IMG/VR virus record: IMGVR_UViG_2541047751_000016 | Span: 1-8,522 of that record | Source of the DNA: a virus | Lineage: Duplodnaviria; Heunggongvirae; Uroviricota; Caudoviricetes | Strand: one strand, 5' to 3' | DNA: 8,522 nt | In this document: positions 1 to 6,311 of the stretch, piece after piece | Layout: every line of letters begins with the position of its first letter | Position numbering within the stretch: position 1 is the stretch's first letter | The notes under the pieces: generated by a model | Databases searched by the model: none | Told to the model about the DNA's origin: nothing | Seen by the model: only the letters and a program-made list of their open reading frames with translations | Made by a program: the position numbers and the translations under genes

Positions 1-693
1 GAATGGCACGCTCTGGAAAAACGAGCACTGGCAGAAGGCTGGACACCATCGCGCTATCTTCTGACGCTATGCAATGAAGAACTCCTGTGGCGCGAGAGTG
101 AAAAACTGCGTCGTTATAAAAAGGAGGCCCGGTTGCCAGTTGCCAAAACGCTAAGCGAATACGACTTCAGTCAGGTGCCGGAACTGAATGGAGCTCAGTT
201 CCGGCAACTCTGTGAAACGACAGACTGGGTTGATGCAGGAGAAAACGTTCTGCTGTTCGGAGCCAGCGGGTTGGGGAAAAGCCATCTGGCGGCAGCGATC
301 GTGGATGGCGTAGTAGGCCAGGGCTACCGGGCCCGGTTCTACAGCGCAGGAGAGTTGTTGCAGGAACTACGTAAAGCCAGAGCGCAGTTGAAACTGAATG
401 AGCTGCTACTGAAACTGGATCGCTACCGGGTGATAGTGGTGGATGATCTTGGCTATGTCAAACGCGACAGCGCCGAAACGGGAGTACTGTTCGAGTTAAT
501 AGCGCATCGCTATGAACGTGGGAGCCTGGTGATAACCAGTAACCATCCGTTCAGCATGTGGGGCAGCATCTTCGTGGATGAGACTATGGCGGTGGCGGCG
601 GCAGACCGGCTGATCCATCACGGATATATGTTCGAACTGAAAGGTGAAAGCTACAGGAAAAAGACAGCGAAGGCAGTAACAAGCGCGACTTGA
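1..693 (+). CDS. istB: IstB-like AAA+ ATP-binding transposition helper of IS21 family (5'-truncated by window edge)
   Basis: Frame 1 is open from base 1 (EWHALEKRALAEGW...). Translation shows LPVAKTLSEYDF, Walker A GASGLGKSHLAAA, Walker B-like VIVVDDLGY, ITSNHPF and C-terminal DRLIHHGYMFELKGESYRKK, matching the IstB/DnaC-like family from memory. Confidence 0.9.
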   Translation, partial: EWHALEKRALAEGWTPSRYLLTLCNEELLWRESEKLRRYKKEARLPVAKTLSEYDFSQVPELNGAQFRQLCETTDWVDAGENVLLFGASGLGKSHLAAAIVDGVVGQGYRARFYSAGELLQELRKARAQLKLNELLLKLDRYRVIVVDDLGYVKRDSAETGVLFELIAHRYERGSLVITSNHPFSMWGSIFVDETMAVAAADRLIHHGYMFELKGESYRKKTAKAVTSAT

Positions 694-776
694 TGTCGCA
701 CTGAAGGGTGCGGCCAGTATAGTTGGCGCGAGTCGGCAAAACTAGTTGACGTCTAATAAGTGGTCATAGCAATACA
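1..776 (+). mobile_element. IS21-family insertion sequence, 3' portion (partial; left part outside window)
   Basis: istB reading frame runs off the left edge and stops at 691-693. Bases 694-776 contain two copies of TAGTTG(G/A)CG (720-728 and 743-751), resembling the multiple terminal repeats of IS21-family ends. Exact right terminus not resolvable; candidate CA termini at 765-766 or 775-776. Confidence 0.7.
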
Positions 777-984
777 AGGGATATCTGCATTTATCCTCTA
801 TGGATCAAGCTTATACCTGTTGTATCAAGGCGCGACATTTACGCCTTACACCAGTGATTACGGAACTCTATACGATGGTAGTGAAGACATCTCTATGGCT
901 TGGATCGTCTTTGGTTTATCTATGGCCGTGTCTGTTGTAGCAGACATCATTAAGGTAATTCTCGTCTTAACCTTCGCTGACTAA
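760..984 (+). CDS. Hypothetical small membrane protein, or 3' remnant of a gene disrupted by the IS insertion
   Basis: 74-codon ORF with GTG start at 760, no clear Shine-Dalgarno, and two in-frame stops just upstream (754-759). Two hydrophobic segments (AFILYGSSLYLLY; MAWIVFGLSMAVSVVADIIKVILVL). Lies across or just beyond the presumed IS end. Confidence 0.25.
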   Translation: MVIAIQGISAFILYGSSLYLLYQGATFTPYTSDYGTLYDGSEDISMAWIVFGLSMAVSVVADIIKVILVLTFAD

Positions 985-1063: not shown

Positions 1064-1150
1064 AAAAAATAAATATCCTTTGTATTCATTTGTTTATCAT
1101 TATTTCATCAAAAATAAATACCTTGGGTATTTACACAATAAAATACCTAC
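1064..1150. repeat. Three imperfect direct repeats of A-rich/ATA(T)CCT motif in AT-rich intergenic DNA
   Basis: AAAAATAAATATCCTTTG (1064-1081), AAAAATAAATACCTTGGG (1110-1127), AATAAAATACCTAC (1137-1150). Spacing about 46 and 27 bp, no supported coding frame. Confidence 0.4.
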
Positions 1151-1370
1151 AGTATTCTTTAGCCATCAGCAGGACGCTGGAAGCCAAACGGAAAAGATTG
1201 GCAGGCTCTTTAACATTGATGGGATTGTCCCGCCGAAATGCGGGAACCAAAGAGTAGTTGGCTTTGGGATTGGATGAATGAGCAGGCTGATGCTCGACCA
1301 ATGTATAAACAGCGCTCATGGCAAGCAGTAACCAATCTGCGCCTCAAGACAGCGTCACTGGTAGTGTGGG

Positions 1371-1404
1371 CGCTCTAACCAGTAAGCCGGAGTTCAGCAC
1401 CGGC
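1371..1404 (+). promoter_or_regulatory. Candidate nut-like site A: boxA-like CGCTCTAAC followed by a GC hairpin
   Basis: CGCTCTAAC at 1371-1379 (lambda boxA is CGCTCTTA(A/C)); 6-nt spacer; hairpin GCCGG (1386-1390) / CCGGC (1400-1404) with 9-nt loop. Sits 243 nt upstream of the N-like start; a TATAAA hexamer lies at 1304-1309. Confidence 0.3.
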
Positions 1405-1489
1405 CATCCAATCGCCAAAGTCAATTCCATAGGCGTTATGCAGCCGCCACCATATTCAAGAAAGCTGCACAAGAGGTAGGAGGATTTAT

Positions 1490-1505
1490 GTGAATACTTA
1501 CATTC
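1490..1505. promoter_or_regulatory. Palindrome TGAAT-N6-ATTCA (candidate operator) in the presumed pL region
   Basis: TGAATACTTACATTCA at 1490-1505 is a dyad with 5-bp arms. It overlaps a TTACAT (1498-1503) -35-like hexamer. Half-site GTATTCA/TGAATAC recurs at 1082-1088 and in the inverted repeat at 2930-2957. Confidence 0.2.
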
Positions 1506-1561
1506 AGTTGAGAGATTAATTAAATAGAACTGATCGAGCAGAGTCCATGAAGGCTCATAAA

Positions 1562-1591
1562 TGCTCTTCCATCCCCGTCTAATTGGCGGGG
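1562..1591 (+). promoter_or_regulatory. Candidate nut-like site B: boxA-like TGCTCTTCC followed by a 7-bp-stem pentaloop hairpin
   Basis: TGCTCTTCC at 1562-1570; hairpin CCCCGTC (1573-1579) / GGCGGGG (1585-1591) with one G-U wobble and loop TAATT (1580-1584). Sits 56 nt upstream of the N-like start codon. Confidence 0.3.
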
Positions 1592-1646
1592 AAGGAAACC
1601 ACTTTGTAATAAAAAAAATTCCAAAGTTGTTTCATCGGAGGTCAAC

Positions 1647-1946
1647 ATGACAGTAGTCATTACATATCTGGCTGACGATAACGCCAGAAATCGCCGCAGA
1701 GCACGCAGACAGGCTCAACGTGAACAGGCGATGCAAGAGCAGCGACTGGCGCGAAAAATTGCGCTAAAGCTCTCTGGTTGCGTCAGAGCAGACAAAGCAG
1801 CATCACTCGGAAGCCTTCTCTGCAAGAAGGCAGATGAAGTCGAGAGTAAACAGAATCGTATTTACTACCGCAAGCCACGCAGTGAAATGGGCGTGACTTG
1901 TGTTGGTCGCCAGAAAATGAAATTAGGCAGCAAACCACTTATTTGA
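1647..1946 (+). CDS. N: N-like transcription antitermination protein
   Basis: GGAGG at 1637-1641, ATG at 1647. N-terminal arginine-rich motif (DDNARNRRRARRQAQREQ) and C-terminus SKQNRIYYRKPRSEMGVTCVGRQKMKLGSKPLI closely resemble lambda N (ERKNQRTWYSKPGERGITCSGRQKIKGKSIPLI, from memory). First gene of the operon. Confidence 0.8.
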   Translation: MTVVITYLADDNARNRRRARRQAQREQAMQEQRLARKIALKLSGCVRADKAASLGSLLCKKADEVESKQNRIYYRKPRSEMGVTCVGRQKMKLGSKPLI

Positions 1947-1954
1947 GGTGAGAT

Positions 1955-2041
1955 ATGGAAGAAGAATTTGAAGAGTTCGAAGGGCATCCGCAGGATGTGA
2001 TGGAGCAATACCAGGACTATCCGTATGACTACGACTATTGA
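1955..2041 (+). CDS. orf28-like acidic mini-protein (28 aa)
   Basis: GAGG at 1945-1948, ATG at 1955, MEEEFEEFEGHPQDVMEQYQDYPYDYDY. Overlaps the ral start by 17 bp, the same arrangement I recall for lambda orf28/ral. Too short for composition statistics. Confidence 0.4.
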   Translation: MEEEFEEFEGHPQDVMEQYQDYPYDYDY

Positions 2042-2225
2042 TAAGAATCAATGGTGTGGACAATTCAAGCGATGCAATGGATGCAAGCTGCAATCGGAAT
2101 GCATGGTTAAGCCTGAAGAAATGTTTCCTGTAATGGAGGATGGGAAATATGTCGATAAATGGGCAATACGAACTACGGCAATGATTGCCAGAGAACTTGG
2201 TAAACTGAACAACAAGGCTGCCTGA
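2025..2225 (+). CDS. ral: Ral restriction-alleviation protein (anti-restriction against type I R-M)
   Basis: 66-aa product MTTTIDKNQWCGQFKRCNGCKLQSECMVKPEEMFPVMEDGKYVDKWAIRTTAMIARELGKLNNKAA is near-identical to lambda Ral as I remember it. Confidence 0.85.
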   Translation: MTTTIDKNQWCGQFKRCNGCKLQSECMVKPEEMFPVMEDGKYVDKWAIRTTAMIARELGKLNNKAA

Positions 2226-2244
2226 TGGTGGCCTTTATTTTCTT
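2214..2244 (+). terminator. Intrinsic-terminator-like hairpin after ral
   Basis: AAGGCTGCC (2214-2222) / GGTGGCCTT (2227-2235) stem with two wobble pairs, loop TGAT, then TATTTTCTTATTT. Shares GGCCTTTATTTT with the hairpin at 2874-2900. Confidence 0.5.
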
Positions 2245-2261
2245 ATTTGAGAGGAATTAAT

Positions 2262-2885
2262 ATGTCATCAATCCGCTTAACTACGAGAATGAAAGAGGAA
2301 ATCGCTCGTAACGCTTTAATTAAGTCTGGGGTTTTCACTGAACTTGAAGAAGTAACAAAGTTAAAGAACCAGCTTGCACTTGACGCCAGAGTTATTGCGT
2401 TTGGCGGTAAAAAGAAAACTGAGGAAGTGGATCAGTTATCATCCAAGTTGGTAGCTATAAGTGAAGAACTTGAAAAGATGGGATGTTCATTTTACTCATA
2501 CGATGTTCGTTCTACTTCAATTTATCTGACTGTATCTGGCAGAAGGGTTGGATGGCATTCATATGGGAAAGACGGCAACGGCGAAGATATATTGCTCCCT
2601 ACTCCGACCAAAGATAAATGCATGTTTGACGCAGAACACGAAATAACAGAAAGGTTTGATGAAATCTGCGCATTACAACAAAAACTTGAAGCAAAGAAAA
2701 AGGATATCGAATCAAATGTATGGGCTGCTTTAAACTCAGTCACAACAGTTAAGCGACTCATTGAAGTTTGGCCTGAAAGCAAAGAATTGCTACCAAAAGA
2801 AGCAGATAAAGCAAGTACAGCACTTCCTGCTTTACGGGTAGAAGATTTGAATAAGATGATTGGACTTCCTTCCGAGGCCGCATAG
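2262..2885 (+). CDS. Hypothetical protein (207 aa), no family recognised
   Basis: GAGAGGA at 2249-2255, ATG at 2262, long open frame. Product MSSIRLTTRMKEEIARNALIKSG...GWHSYGKDGNGEDILLPTPTKDKCMFDAEHE... Occupies the position of lambda ea10 between ral and cIII. Looks more AT-rich than its neighbours by eye. Confidence 0.75.
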   Translation: MSSIRLTTRMKEEIARNALIKSGVFTELEEVTKLKNQLALDARVIAFGGKKKTEEVDQLSSKLVAISEELEKMGCSFYSYDVRSTSIYLTVSGRRVGWHSYGKDGNGEDILLPTPTKDKCMFDAEHEITERFDEICALQQKLEAKKKDIESNVWAALNSVTTVKRLIEVWPESKELLPKEADKASTALPALRVEDLNKMIGLPSEAA

Positions 2886-2900
2886 TCGGCCTTTATTTTT
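2874..2900 (+). terminator. Intrinsic terminator after the 207-aa gene
   Basis: Stem AGGCCG (2875-2880) / CGGCCT (2887-2892), loop CATAGT containing the stop codon, then TTATTTTT. Confidence 0.65.
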
Positions 2901-2927
2901 GGCACTAACAACAGAATAAACACTGCA

Positions 2928-2959
2928 CTGTGTATTCATTCCAACGAGTGAATACACGG
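2928..2959. repeat. Near-perfect inverted repeat (9-bp arms, 10-nt spacer)
   Basis: GTGTATTCA (2930-2938) and TGAATACAC (2949-2957), extendable to 2928-2959 with a wobble. No U-tract follows, so not a typical terminator. Confidence 0.6.
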
Positions 2960-3019
2960 AGCAATGTCGCTCGTAACTAAACAGGAGCCGACTTGTTCTG
3001 ATTATTGGAAATCTTCTTT

Positions 3020-3046
3020 GCCCTCCAGTGTGAGGGCCTTTTTATA
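3020..3046 (+). terminator. Intrinsic terminator upstream of the cIII-like gene
   Basis: Stem GCCCTC (3020-3025) / GAGGGC (3032-3037), loop CAGTGT, then CTTTTTATAT. Confidence 0.65.
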
Positions 3047-3109
3047 TGCATACCAATAACGCTTCACTCGAGGCGTTTTCGTTATGCAATCAAACAGAAG
3101 GAGCATCCT

Positions 3110-3280
3110 ATGCAACAGTTCGCTATTGCAGGGGCGGCATCGGTTCGCCCTTTCAACCCGATTTTATCGGTACAGCATTCACGAAAAAATATTTTAACCG
3201 GAGCAGACTTTAAACAACCAAGAATGAAAAGTTTGCTCGAAAAGCTTTGGGATATTTTGAAACAACAAGGCCGTCCATGA
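3110..3280 (+). CDS. cIII: cIII-like protein (putative FtsH/HflB protease inhibitor)
   Basis: AAGGAG at 3098-3103, ATG at 3110, 56 aa. N-terminal MQQFAIAG and C-terminal LLEKLWDILKQQGRP resemble lambda CIII (MQYAIAG...WKRLIDILNQPGVP, from memory); position matches lambda gene order. Confidence 0.6.
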   Translation: MQQFAIAGAASVRPFNPILSVQHSRKNILTGADFKQPRMKSLLEKLWDILKQQGRP

Positions 3281-4581: not shown

Positions 4582-5047
4582 AATAGCCAATGAATACGCA
4601 AAGCTGATGGATTCAGATTTAGAGCCAGAGATGATTGCTGACACAATAGAAGGCATGGAAGGAGAATTTACCGATAAAATAGAGCAACTTCTTTCCGTCA
4701 TTAAAAATGAATCTGGTTATGCCGAACGCCTCAAGGAAGAGGCAAAGTCACTGAATGAGCGAGCCGCAGTAATTCAAAATAAGATTGAGAGCATCAAATC
4801 ATATATAGCGTCATCGCTTGAAATGGTTGGCAAGAAAAATATTCGAGCAGGCATTCACCAGGTAACAATCCGAAAACCGTCAGAAATTGTAGAAATCATC
4901 GACTCAAGCGCCCTTCCTCCTGAATACGTTGAGTTCGAAACGACAATTAAAGCCGACAAACTGGCAATCAAACACCAACTAAAAGCAGGAATAAATATCC
5001 CCGGCGCTCAACTCAAAGTTGGGAAACCTTCACTTCTTATCAAATAA
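4565..5047 (+). CDS. Siphovirus Gp157-family protein
   Basis: GGAGG at 4554-4558, GTG at 4565 (TTG at 4559 also possible); overlaps the recT 3' end. Product (V/M)SKLYEIANEYAKLMDSDLEPEMIADTIEGMEGEF... resembles Gp157-family proteins that commonly sit beside RecT/Erf genes. Confidence 0.7.
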   Translation: MSKLYEIANEYAKLMDSDLEPEMIADTIEGMEGEFTDKIEQLLSVIKNESGYAERLKEEAKSLNERAAVIQNKIESIKSYIASSLEMVGKKNIRAGIHQVTIRKPSEIVEIIDSSALPPEYVEFETTIKADKLAIKHQLKAGINIPGAQLKVGKPSLLIK

Positions 5048-5832: not shown

Positions 5833-6311
5833 AACAAATGTCACTAATTGAGATGGATGGATTTCTGAAAGGTAAATGCATCCCAAGTGATTTAAAGGTT
5901 AACGAAACAAACGCTGAATACCTTGTCCGTAAGTTCGGTGAACTTGAATCAAAACTGGAAACGGCGTTGCGGGAGTGTAGTTCTGCTGGAATCACGATTG
6001 ATAACCTTGAGGCTAAATGCGCGAAGATGGCTGCTGAAAATACCTCACTTAAGCAATCTGAGAAGGAATTTAATGACTTTTGTCGTGAGGAGTTTAGCGA
6101 ATGGGAAGATGATGTTACTGAAACCCCAGCCACCGATGCTTTCCTGGCTGAAGTACGGGCGCAGGGGGTAGAGATGTACGCAGATAACCTCGACAACGGA
6201 GCAGACGACGCAGAACGAGGTGGTTTTGATGATGCCGTTAAGTTTCTACGCAGTGAAGCGTCTGGTGTACGTTTGTTCGCCGACCAGCTTCGCAAAGGAG
6301 GCAACCAGTGA
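5829..6311 (+). CDS. Coiled-coil protein, Ea22-like (paralog 1)
   Basis: ATG at 5829 (in-frame GTG at 5811 is an alternative). Coiled-coil-like N-terminal half and acidic C-terminal half. Family assignment from memory is tentative. Confidence 0.6.

What the first reader, a model, noticed from the sequence alone, without database searches (positions are those of the whole stretch)
1082..2957. Recurring GTATTCA/TGAATAC half-site at the pL region and inside the operon
The heptamer GTATTCA or its complement occurs at 1082-1088, within the palindrome TGAATACTTACATTCA (1490-1505) in the presumed promoter region upstream of N, and as both arms of the inverted repeat at 2930-2957. A shared dyad at a promoter and at an internal site would fit operator sites for one regulator, possibly a repressor now separated from this operon by the IS insertion. 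A 7-mer can recur by chance in AT-rich DNA, so this is tentative.
Basis: seen in the sequence. Interest (0 to 1): 0.4.

Follow-up and report, generated by a model that had tools for sequence, protein, structure and literature searches.

The report
Heptamer recurrence: operator, leader, sRNA hairpin
The repeated GTATTCA is not one regulator's binding site: one copy sits in a genuine, already known phage-repressor operator, one is a non-conserved stretch in the N-gene leader, two form the stem of a conserved RNA hairpin directly in front of the known phage small RNA PreS, and three are ordinary Glu-Tyr codons.

Summary
**Observation.** But 18 other 7-mers are equally frequent, and the seven copies have four unrelated origins.

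**Operators.** The real pL and operators are at 1071-1158, not near 1490. They are 17-bp dyads, AAATAC(C/T)-N3-(G/A)GTATT(T/C), identical to the OL1/OL2/pL annotated in phage HK620. The same dyad recurs at OR of intact relatives. Copy 1082 is the right half of a third operator-like site.

**1490 palindrome.** It lies downstream of pL and nutL, in an optional ~210-bp N-leader segment. It is not conserved in phages with the same immunity, yet it is present in a phage with P22-type operators.

**2930-2957 repeat.** It is the stem of an RNA hairpin 100% identical in phage lambda. The hairpin abuts the 5' end of the Hfq-dependent sRNA PreS/LPR1 (window 2959-3046). Four different stem sequences occupy this position in different phages, all paired, so the structure is selected and the heptamer is not.

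**Verdict.** The shared-operator reading fails. The operators and PreS are already known. The PreS-flanking hairpin, probably a processing signal, is a modest new observation.

The parts
1..759 (+). Right part of an IS21-family element (ISEc10), including the 3' part of istB (ORF listed from 133 to 693). It is inserted in the small ORF downstream of the phage repressor gene.
   Evidence: 99.7-100% identity to annotated ISEc10 istB on plasmids, with matches ending at 759-764. Prophage homology starts at 759/760.
760..984 (+). 3' fragment (74 codons) of the hkaS-like ORF that follows cI in HK620-immunity phages.
   Evidence: phrog_6534, profile positions 50-122 of 122. The intact 369-nt ORF follows cI in HK620, HK140 and 611R6.
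1071..1087 (.). Operator-like dyad AAATATCCTTTGTATTC, a probable third OL site. Its right half holds heptamer copy 1 (1082-1088).
   Evidence: 12.9 bits with a matrix trained only on HK620 OL1, OL2 and OR1-3. Rank 3 of 8,506. P about 0.002 per 100 bp. Conserved in HK620, HK140 and 611R6.
1116..1132 (.). OL2, AAATACCTTGGGTATTT.
   Evidence: Identical to OL2 annotated in HK620, AF335538. Top matrix score.
1141..1157 (.). OL1, AAATACCTACAGTATTC.
   Evidence: Identical to OL1 annotated in HK620.
1130..1158 (+). pL promoter: TTTACA, 17-nt spacer, TATTCT.
   Evidence: Promoter scan. Identical to pL annotated in HK620.
1204..1245 (+). nutL: boxA GGCTCTTTAACA plus the boxB hairpin CCCGCCGAAATGCGGG.
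   Evidence: Identical to nutL annotated in HK620. boxA is also annotated in HK140.
1490..1505 (.). Weak palindrome TGAATACTTACATTCA holding heptamer copy 2. It lies in the transcribed N leader, within a facultative ~210-bp segment (about 1424-1633).
   Evidence: Operator matrix 1.7 bits. The segment is absent from HK620 and 611R6. The site reads TGAATGCATAACTTCA in HK140, ECE170, APEC O1 and A15.
1647..1946 (+). Antiterminator N.
   Evidence: phrog_271, E 8e-36. Annotated as N in relatives.
2025..2225 (+). ral (restriction alleviation).
   Evidence: phrog_1055, E 3e-49.
2262..2885 (+). ORF of unknown function, a moron-like insertion between ral and the PreS hairpin.
   Evidence: phrog_1965, E 4e-84. 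Bracketed by repeats of GGCCTTTATTTT at 2230-2243 and 2888-2901 (family D3).
2920..2967 (+). RNA hairpin. The inner stem of 14 pairs is 2928-2941 with 2946-2959, and the loop is CAAC. Heptamer copies 3 and 4 are its two arms.
   Evidence: -24.9 kcal/mol, z = -5.7. 100% identical in lambda 34003-34050. Four stem alleles with 93% pairing in register.
2959..3046 (+). Homologue of the lambda Hfq-dependent sRNA PreS (LPR1), 88 nt.
   Evidence: Boundaries taken from primers P810, P969, P1103 and P1104 of bioRxiv 10.1101/2024.10.31.621285. 85 of 88 nt identical to lambda; the three differences are in the terminator tail.
3020..3047 (+). Intrinsic terminator, equivalent to tL2A. It forms the 3' end of PreS.
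   Evidence: Terminator scan. Aligns to tL2A annotated in HK620. Called tL2a in the PreS preprint.
3058..3079 (+). Second terminator, equivalent to tL2B.
3110..3280 (+). cIII.
   Evidence: phrog_550, E 1e-22.
4591..4597 (-). Heptamer copy 5: in-frame GAA-TAC (Glu-Tyr) in the Gam-like ORF.
4921..4927 (-). Heptamer copy 6: in-frame Glu-Tyr codons in the same ORF.
5915..5921 (-). Heptamer copy 7: in-frame Glu-Tyr codons in ORF 5811/5829-6311.

Best explanation
The seven GTATTCA/TGAATAC copies are a coincidental collection from four unrelated sources.

1. **Operator (shown).** The window carries the left operator-promoter of an HK620-immunity lambdoid prophage. OL2 (1116-1132) and OL1 (1141-1157) overlap pL (1130-1158). 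A third operator-like dyad lies at 1071-1087. The operator is a 17-bp dyad, AAATAC(C/T)-N3-(G/A)GTATT(T/C), recognised by the HK620-type CI/Cro pair. Heptamer copy 1 is simply the right half-site of the 1071-1087 dyad plus one flanking base.
2. **N leader (shown).** Copy 2 lies about 325 nt downstream of the pL start and about 245 nt downstream of nutL, in an optional segment of the N leader. It is not conserved and has no operator geometry, so I read it as a chance half-site.
3. **RNA hairpin (position and covariation shown; mechanism inferred).** Copies 3 and 4 are the two strands of an RNA hairpin in the pL transcript. Its base pair C2928:G2959 includes the first nucleotide of the sRNA PreS/LPR1 (2959-3046). 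I infer that the hairpin is the processing determinant that releases the 88-nt PreS 5' end from the pL read-through transcript. RNase III is the most likely enzyme, cutting at the non-Watson-Crick position next to the stem base. PreS then acts through Hfq on host mRNAs such as dnaN, as shown for lambda.
4. **Codons (shown).** Copies 5-7 are Glu-Tyr codons.
For: **Operators.**
- Three copies of the dyad at 1071-1157, overlapping a sigma-70-like promoter.
- Base-for-base identity with OL1, OL2, pL and nutL annotated in HK620.
- The same dyad at OR between cI and cro in HK140, 611R6 and HK620.
- Matrix scores: OL2 23.2, OL1 20.0, site 1071-1087 12.9, next best 9.6, 1490 site 1.7, hairpin 5.0.

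**1490 site.**
- The leader alignment shows the ~210-bp segment is missing in HK620 and 611R6. The heptamer is replaced by TGAATGC in HK140, ECE170, APEC O1 and A15.
- CUS-3, with P22-type operators, keeps the segment at 98.7% identity.

**Hairpin.**
- Folding: -24.9 kcal/mol, z = -5.7.
- Identical in lambda. Present in 2,239 of 5,426 complete E. coli genomes.
- All 123 viral contigs with enough upstream sequence carry a hairpin at this position. Only 2 of 75 have HK620-type operators upstream.
- Four stem alleles, 93% paired in register against 29-47% when slid. Positions 2-9 of the stem show 2-4 canonical pair types each.
- U:G pairs are tolerated only in the pL-sense RNA.
- The PreS 5' end at window 2959 comes from the published primers. 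PreS is made only in the lytic cycle, and the paper describes no promoter for it.
- A cut at 2958|2959 with a 2-nt 3' overhang would excise a 28-nt hairpin of 11 bp plus a tetraloop. The two intervening pairs are U:G and G:C, which matches the in-vivo RNase III rule in the abstract of PMC6212723.

**Coding copies.**
Against: - The heptamer excess over shuffles is real for this particular word. Four copies in 1.3 kb of non-coding DNA against 0.22 expected is unusual if the post-hoc choice is ignored.
- The 1071-1087 site is 45 bp from OL2, not the usual ~24 bp. HK620's depositors annotated that stretch as a terminator (tIMM) and placed OL3 elsewhere. No binding data are available.
- For the hairpin, no cleavage data exist. 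The PreS 5' end is taken from cloning primers, not from a mapped end.
- In the three non-lambda stem alleles the position next to the base pair is a mismatch. There the 'at least one G-C between the cuts' rule is not met.
- RNase III is not mentioned in the PreS preprint.
Confidence: 0.8

Rival explanations
1. One reading: GTATTCA is the half-site of one repressor that binds at 1082, at the 1490 palindrome and at the 2930-2957 inverted repeat. This would give a promoter operator plus an internal operator.
For: The heptamer matches the half-site consensus of the HK620-type operators. The word is over-represented relative to shuffles.
Against: - The 1490 site is not at the promoter and scores 1.7 bits.
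- The hairpin arms are divergent with 12-nt spacing and score 5.0 bits or less.
- Both elements occur with other immunity types (lambda, HK022, Stx phages, CUS-3). They are absent or changed in phages of the same immunity.
- The stem sequence is replaced by unrelated sequences that keep the pairing.
Confidence: 0.03
2. The 2920-2967 hairpin is functional RNA, but not a PreS processing signal. It could be a 3' protective stem for the upstream ral/moron mRNA after endonucleolytic cleavage, a transcriptional pause site, or a structural 5' module of a longer PreS precursor.
For: - The structure is conserved with covariation.
- It sits at the 3' end of whatever upstream module is present and at a mosaic junction.
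- The preprint reports a stronger 68-nt form, so other processing exists.
- The mismatch at k=1 in three alleles does not fit the G-C rule for RNase III.
Against: The stem base pair always includes the first PreS nucleotide. The hairpin travels with PreS in all 123 loci where the 5' flank is present, whatever lies upstream. Neither observation excludes these roles.
Confidence: 0.25
3. The inverted repeat acts at the DNA level, as a cruciform, a recombination boundary sequence or a host-protein site. That would explain why mosaic junctions fall at its 5' base.
For: Sequence 5' of about 2925 changes completely between phage classes. CUS-3's depositors annotate 'boundary sequences' in this genome type.
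Against: Invariant and recurrent U:G pairs (k=2, k=11) would be mismatches in DNA and in the antisense RNA. Wholesale replacement of the stem sequence with pairing kept argues against sequence-specific protein recognition.
Confidence: 0.05
4. The 1071-1087 dyad is not an operator. It is part of the cI-operon terminator (tIMM), as annotated in HK620, and its resemblance to the operators is fortuitous.
For: HK620's annotation. The 45-bp distance from OL2 is atypical.
Against: - No G+C-rich stem or T-run was detected there by the terminator scan.
- The site ranks 3rd of 8,506 positions, with chance about 0.002 per 100 bp.
- The annotated OL3 position scores -12.4 bits.
Confidence: 0.2

Closest known systems
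OL/pL/nutL region of coliphage HK620 (GenBank AF335538; imm-HK620 type, also in HK140 and vB_EcoP-611R6)
   Same: OL1, OL2, pL and nutL are identical in sequence and order. The same 17-bp dyad is used at OR. cI followed by the hkaS-like ORF lies upstream in relatives.
   Different: - Here the hkaS-like ORF is cut by ISEc10, and cI is not in the window.
- The N leader is about 290 nt longer than in HK620 (two indels), and the N allele is the 99-aa type.
- I place the third operator at 1071-1087, not at the depositors' OL3.
Phage lambda PreS (LPR1) sRNA locus between ral and ea10 (bioRxiv 10.1101/2024.10.31.621285)
   Same: The hairpin is 100% identical. The 88-nt sRNA is 85/88 identical, including the seed region and the M1 site. 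The terminator forms the 3' end.
   Different: - In the window an extra ORF (phrog_1965) lies between ral and the hairpin.
- ea10 is absent, so tL2A is followed directly by tL2B and cIII.
- The preprint does not discuss the 5' flanking hairpin or how the 5' end is made.
RNase III-processed hairpins in phage early transcripts (lambda N-leader and sib sites, T7 R1.1; DicF release from the dicB operon of prophage Qin). Recalled from established literature; DicF is cited in PMC12197685.
   Same: - A stem of about two helical turns with small internal mismatches, inside a polycistronic early transcript.
- The predicted cut is next to a non-Watson-Crick position.
- A small RNA is released whose 3' end is an intrinsic terminator.
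   Different: No cleavage has been demonstrated here. Assignment to RNase III is an inference from geometry only.

Membership tests
Lambdoid CI/Cro operator, HK620 immunity type | 17-bp dyad matching AAATAC(C/T)-N3-(G/A)GTATT(T/C) | tested here: met
   Sites 1116-1132 and 1141-1157 score 23.2 and 20.0 bits. Site 1071-1087 scores 12.9 bits with a matrix that excludes it.
Lambdoid CI/Cro operator, HK620 immunity type | The same dyad geometry at the 1490-1505 palindrome | tested here: not met
   1.7 bits. Only one half-site is present, and the partner position reads ATTCAG.
Lambdoid CI/Cro operator, HK620 immunity type | The same dyad geometry at 2930-2957 | tested here: not met
   The half-sites are divergent: GTATTC-N12-GAATAC against GAATAC-N5-GTATTC. 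Best score 5.0 bits.
Lambdoid CI/Cro operator, HK620 immunity type | Overlap with the -35/-10 of the early promoter, and tandem arrangement | tested here: met
   OL2 overlaps the -35 and OL1 lies between -35 and -10 of TTTACA-17-TATTCT. The 1071-1087 site is 45 bp upstream, an atypical spacing.
Lambdoid CI/Cro operator, HK620 immunity type | Co-variation with immunity type: present with the cognate cI, absent with others | tested here: met
   The dyads are found at OL and OR of HK620, HK140 and 611R6. CUS-3, with another repressor, has TTAAG..CTTAA-type sites instead. The 1490 and 2930 sites fail this test.
Lambdoid CI/Cro operator, HK620 immunity type | Binding by the repressor | not testable with these tools
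   Needs a footprint, EMSA or ChIP. cI is outside the window.
PreS/LPR1 Hfq-dependent sRNA | Sequence homology to lambda LPR1 over its full length, including the seed | tested here: met
   85/88 identical. The differences are at positions 80, 81 and 86 only. The M1/seed region is identical.
PreS/LPR1 Hfq-dependent sRNA | G+C-rich terminator hairpin plus U-tail at the 3' end | tested here: met
   Terminator at 3020-3047.
PreS/LPR1 Hfq-dependent sRNA | Expression, Hfq binding and regulation of dnaN | not testable with these tools
   Shown for lambda only.
RNase III hairpin substrate | About 20 bp or more of mostly paired intramolecular stem | tested here: met
   22 stacked positions with 2 mismatches, -24.9 kcal/mol.
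RNase III hairpin substrate | Cut positions giving a 2-nt 3' overhang, with the two intervening positions paired and including a G-C | tested here: inconclusive
   Met for the lambda/window allele, where the pairs are U:G and G:C. In the three other alleles the first of these positions is a mismatch. The 5' end is known only from primers.
RNase III hairpin substrate | rnc-dependent cleavage | not testable with these tools
   Needs a northern blot or 5' end mapping in an rnc mutant.
IS21 family (ISEc10) | IstB helper ATPase gene and the element end | tested here: met
   99.7-100% identity to annotated ISEc10 istB, with matches ending at 759-764.

The most novel reading that the evidence does not exclude
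The conserved hairpin immediately 5' of PreS is the signal by which RNase III, or another double-strand-specific activity, releases the 88-nt sRNA from the pL read-through transcript. Its stem is free to change sequence (four alleles) as long as pairing and the C:G base pair with the first PreS nucleotide are kept. Separately, the true third left operator of HK620-type immunity is the dyad at 1071-1087, 45 bp from OL2, and not the annotated OL3.
Probability: 0.45. Interest if true: 0.45.

Novelty: already known. Interest (0 to 1): 0.27.

Why it matters
**For the finding as posed, little.** It shows that an eye-catching repeated word is a mixture of a known operator half-site, an RNA stem, a chance match and codons.

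**Two by-products may be useful.**
- The PreS sRNA block is in about 41% of complete E. coli genomes and is unannotated in all ten best-matching records listed. It always carries a covarying 5' hairpin whose base includes the sRNA's first nucleotide. That gives a direct, testable hypothesis for PreS biogenesis, which the describing preprint leaves open.
- The OL3 annotation of the HK620 immunity type probably needs moving.

Tried and rejected
- **Wrong spacer.** My first operator pattern used a 4-nt spacer and found nothing. The corrected 3-nt spacer worked.
- **Rfam.** An E-value scan of the whole window gave only a chance ToxT-thermometer match, E 0.34. PreS is not in Rfam.
- **Faulty recall.** I first called the terminator at 3020-3047 'tL1' from memory. 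HK620's annotation and the PreS preprint call it tL2A/tL2a.
- **Literature.** Searches for an RNase III site near lambda ral/tL found nothing usable. The 'ral' hits in PMC6212723 refer to ralR/ralA of the Rac prophage. No later version of the PreS paper is held.
- **PreS promoter.** I considered a promoter for PreS within the hairpin. No sigma-70-like match was found, and the would-be -10 region is not conserved between stem alleles.
- **1490 leader segment.** The consensus structure gave no supportive covariation, with a covariation term of +1.39. I make no structural claim for the palindrome.
- **Alignment register.** The MAFFT alignment of the four hairpin alleles mis-registered one class. 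I replaced it with anchor-based pair counting.
- **Source genome.** The IS/prophage junction is in none of the 5,426 complete E. coli genomes, so the source of the window remains unidentified.
Full report
**1. Observation**

GTATTCA/TGAATAC occurs seven times in the window: at 1082, 1491, 2932, 2949, 4591, 4921 and 5915. Dinucleotide-preserving shuffles give 1.03 copies, and none of 200 reaches 7. It missed three copies.

- The 1490-1505 'palindrome' has only 5-nt complementary arms.
- The 2930-2957 repeat is really a 22-position stem with a 4-nt loop at 2920-2967.
- The word was chosen after the fact: 18 different strand-symmetric 7-mers reach 7 or more copies here.
- The three downstream copies are all in-frame GAA-TAC (Glu-Tyr) codons. 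That is 3 observed against 1.02 under synonymous shuffling, P=0.06.

**2. Where the promoter and operators really are**

The repeat finder showed three copies of a ~17-nt unit at 1064-1156 (D1 and I12). The promoter scan placed TTTACA-17-TATTCT at 1130-1158.

Annotated relatives HK140 and vB_EcoP-611R6 have cI, a 369-nt ORF, then this region, then N. In the window an IS interrupts that 369-nt ORF.

- The element is ISEc10, of the IS21 family. Its end is at about 759.
- ORF 760-984 matches positions 50-122 of 122 of phrog_6534.

The HK620 GenBank record annotates OL1, OL2, pL and nutL. All are base-for-base identical to window 1141-1157, 1116-1132, 1130-1158 and 1204-1245.

The dyad AATAYY-N3-RRTATT occurs three times in the window at 1072-1156, against 0.37 matches expected in the whole window. 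It occurs again between cI and cro in HK140 and 611R6.

So the heptamer is a legitimate variant of the real half-site, (A/G)AATAC(C/T). HK620 OR1 is tGAATACCTGTAGTATTCt.

**3. Copy 1 (1082-1088)**

This copy is the right half of AAATATCCTTTGTATTC (1071-1087). I scored it with a matrix trained only on HK620's annotated OL1, OL2 and OR1-3.

| Site | Score (bits) |
|---|---|
| OL2 | 23.2 |
| OL1 | 20.0 |
| 1071-1087 | 12.9 |
| Next best in window | 9.6 |
| HK620 'OL3' equivalent (1094-1110) | -12.4 |

- Site 1071-1087 ranks 3rd of 8,506 positions. The chance of such a score in 100 bp is about 0.002.
- HK620's depositors called OL3 the stretch equivalent to 1094-1110. They labelled the stretch containing my site 'tIMM'.
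- I therefore think 1071-1087 is the real third operator, although its 45-bp distance from OL2 is unusual. This is inference; no binding data exist.

**4. Copy 2 (1490-1505)**

pL starts transcription near 1165 and nutL is at 1204-1245. The site therefore lies in the N leader, not at a promoter.

- It scores 1.7 bits on the operator matrix.
- An alignment of leaders shows it lies in a ~210-bp segment (about 1424-1633). The segment is present in the window, CUS-3 and HK140, and absent from HK620 and 611R6.
- E. coli genomes hold this segment in three divergence classes.
- In HK140, ECE170, APEC O1 and A15 the site reads TGAATGCATAACTTCA, with no heptamer and no dyad. HK140 and ECE170 have the HK620-type repressor and operators.
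- CUS-3 keeps the heptamer at 98.7% identity but has P22-like TTAAG..CTTAA operators.

The site therefore does not track the immunity type. The consensus fold of the segment gave no supporting covariation. The invariant part is AGGAGGATTTATGTGA, not the palindrome.

**5. Copies 3 and 4 (2930-2957)**

The hairpin folds at -24.9 kcal/mol, against -11.05 +/- 2.43 for shuffles, z = -5.7.

*Distribution.*
- The block 2882-3047 is 96% identical to phage lambda. The hairpin itself is 100% identical, at lambda 34003-34050.
- It is also in HK620, HK022, Stx phages and many others, and in 2,239 of 5,426 complete E. coli genomes.
- All 123 IMG/VR contigs with enough 5' flank carry a hairpin at this position.
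- Of the hairpin-bearing contigs, 75 had at least 3.5 kb of upstream sequence. Only 2 of those 75 have HK620-type operators there.
- Sequence 5' of about 2925 differs completely between classes, so the hairpin starts a conserved block at a mosaic junction.

*Link to PreS.*
- A review led me to the lambda sRNA PreS/LPR1, 'between ea10 and ral'.
- The primary preprint describes an ~88-nt Hfq-dependent RNA ending at terminator tL2a. It is made only in the lytic cycle and up-regulates dnaN.
- The preprint's primers put the 5' end at GAGCAATG, which is window 2959, and the left deletion boundary at ...GAATACACG, which is 2958.
- The window's copy (2959-3046) is 85/88 identical to lambda's, differing only in the terminator tail.
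- So the innermost base pair of the stem base, C2928:G2959, contains the first PreS nucleotide.

**6. Structure, not sequence, is conserved**

Different phages place four different stems at this position.

| Stem allele | Found in |
|---|---|
| GTGTATTCA | lambda, window |
| TATAGCAGA/TCTGCTATG | Salmonella phage Oslo, an IMG/VR class |
| AATGACCA/TGGTCATT | SE16, NM-3 |
| AATGCGGA/TCCGCATT | SEN22 |

- All four sit between the same flanks...GC(A/G) and (G/A)GCAAT.
- On the first alignment, 8 consecutive pairs change on both sides and 97% of cells are paired, against 24-52% when the partners are slid.
- Counting from the common base pair across all four alleles, 93% are paired in register against 29-47% when slid. 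Stem positions 2-9 show 2-4 canonical pair types each.
- Recurrent U:G pairs mean that only the pL-sense RNA keeps the stem.

This rules out GTATTCA as a protein-recognition word at this site.

**7. Mechanism (inferred)**

PreS has no described promoter. No sigma-70-like site lies in front of 2959, and the would-be -10 region differs between alleles. PreS appears only when pL is active. A processed 5' end is therefore most likely.

A cut at 2958|2959, paired with a cut at 2930|2931 to leave a 2-nt 3' overhang, would excise a 28-nt hairpin of 11 bp plus a tetraloop. The two intervening pairs would be U:G and G:C. That matches the in-vivo RNase III pattern summarised in PMC6212723.

There are three caveats:
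- In the other three alleles the position next to the base pair is a mismatch.
- The 5' end is not experimentally mapped at nucleotide resolution in what I could read.
- No cleavage data exist.

I give RNase III-type processing about 0.45. A protective or pausing role for the hairpin remains a serious rival.

**8. Comparison with known systems and verdict**

The operators, pL and nutL are those of HK620-type immunity and are already annotated. PreS is already described in lambda. The IS is ISEc10.

The unified 'recurring half-site' is not a real regulatory motif.

Two points are new but modest: the covarying hairpin abutting PreS, and the probable re-assignment of OL3. Interest 0.27.

Noticed in passing
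window 1071-1087 versus 1094-1110: The dyad AAATATCCTTTGTATTC scores 12.9 bits (rank 3 of 8,506). The position HK620's depositors annotate as OL3 scores -12.4 bits. The good site lies inside their 'tIMM' terminator, 45 bp from OL2. OL3 of this immunity type is probably mis-annotated.
   Followed up: partly
window 2959-3046: An unannotated homologue of the lambda sRNA PreS/LPR1, 85/88 identical. The hairpin plus PreS block is in 2,239 of 5,426 complete E. coli genomes, up to 6 copies per genome. No feature is annotated under it in the ten best-matching records listed, and it has no Rfam family.
   Followed up: yes
window 1478-1493 and 1596-1635, within the facultative leader segment at about 1424-1633: The optional ~210-bp N-leader segment has two features that do not vary across its three divergence classes. 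One is a strong Shine-Dalgarno followed by ATG-TGA (AGGAGGATTTATGTGA, a start-stop mini-ORF). The other is a 15-16-bp stem, GAAACCACTTTGTAAT/ATTCCAAAGTTGTTTC, just 5' of the N ribosome-binding site. This may be translational or RNase III control of N, as in the lambda leader.
   Followed up: partly
window 1370-1406, within a ~130-bp leader indel at about 1262-1395: A second boxA-like CGCTCTAA is followed 10 nt later by the hairpin GCCGG-AGTTCAGCA-CCGGC, about 165 nt downstream of the annotated nutL. It is shared with 611R6. HK140, CUS-3 and HK620 lack the indel, and their corresponding stretch has no boxA-like sequence.
   Followed up: no
window 2230-2243, 2262-2885, 2888-2901: An ORF of unknown function (phrog_1965, 207 aa) is inserted between ral and the PreS hairpin, relative to lambda. 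It is bracketed by direct repeats of the terminator tail GGCCTTTATTTT, as a moron-type insertion would be.
   Followed up: partly
window 1-759 and the junction at 759/760: ISEc10 (IS21 family, istB) is inserted in the hkaS-like ORF downstream of cI. This IS/prophage junction is in none of the 5,426 complete E. coli genomes searched, so the source strain or species is not identified.
   Followed up: partly
L129 (SEN22), L130 (SE16), L131 (Oslo) and L132 (NM-3), about 360-500 in each locus: Salmonella P22-like phages carry a diverged PreS-like sequence (72-75% identity) with a 13-14-nt insertion before the terminator. Each has its own 5' hairpin allele. This extends the PreS family beyond the >=92% identity set reported in the preprint.
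   Followed up: partly
window 2590-2668 (- strand): A weak Rfam match to the ToxT thermometer (27.5 bits against a gathering score of 81, E 0.34), inside the coding region of ORF 2262-2885. I take it as chance.
   Followed up: no
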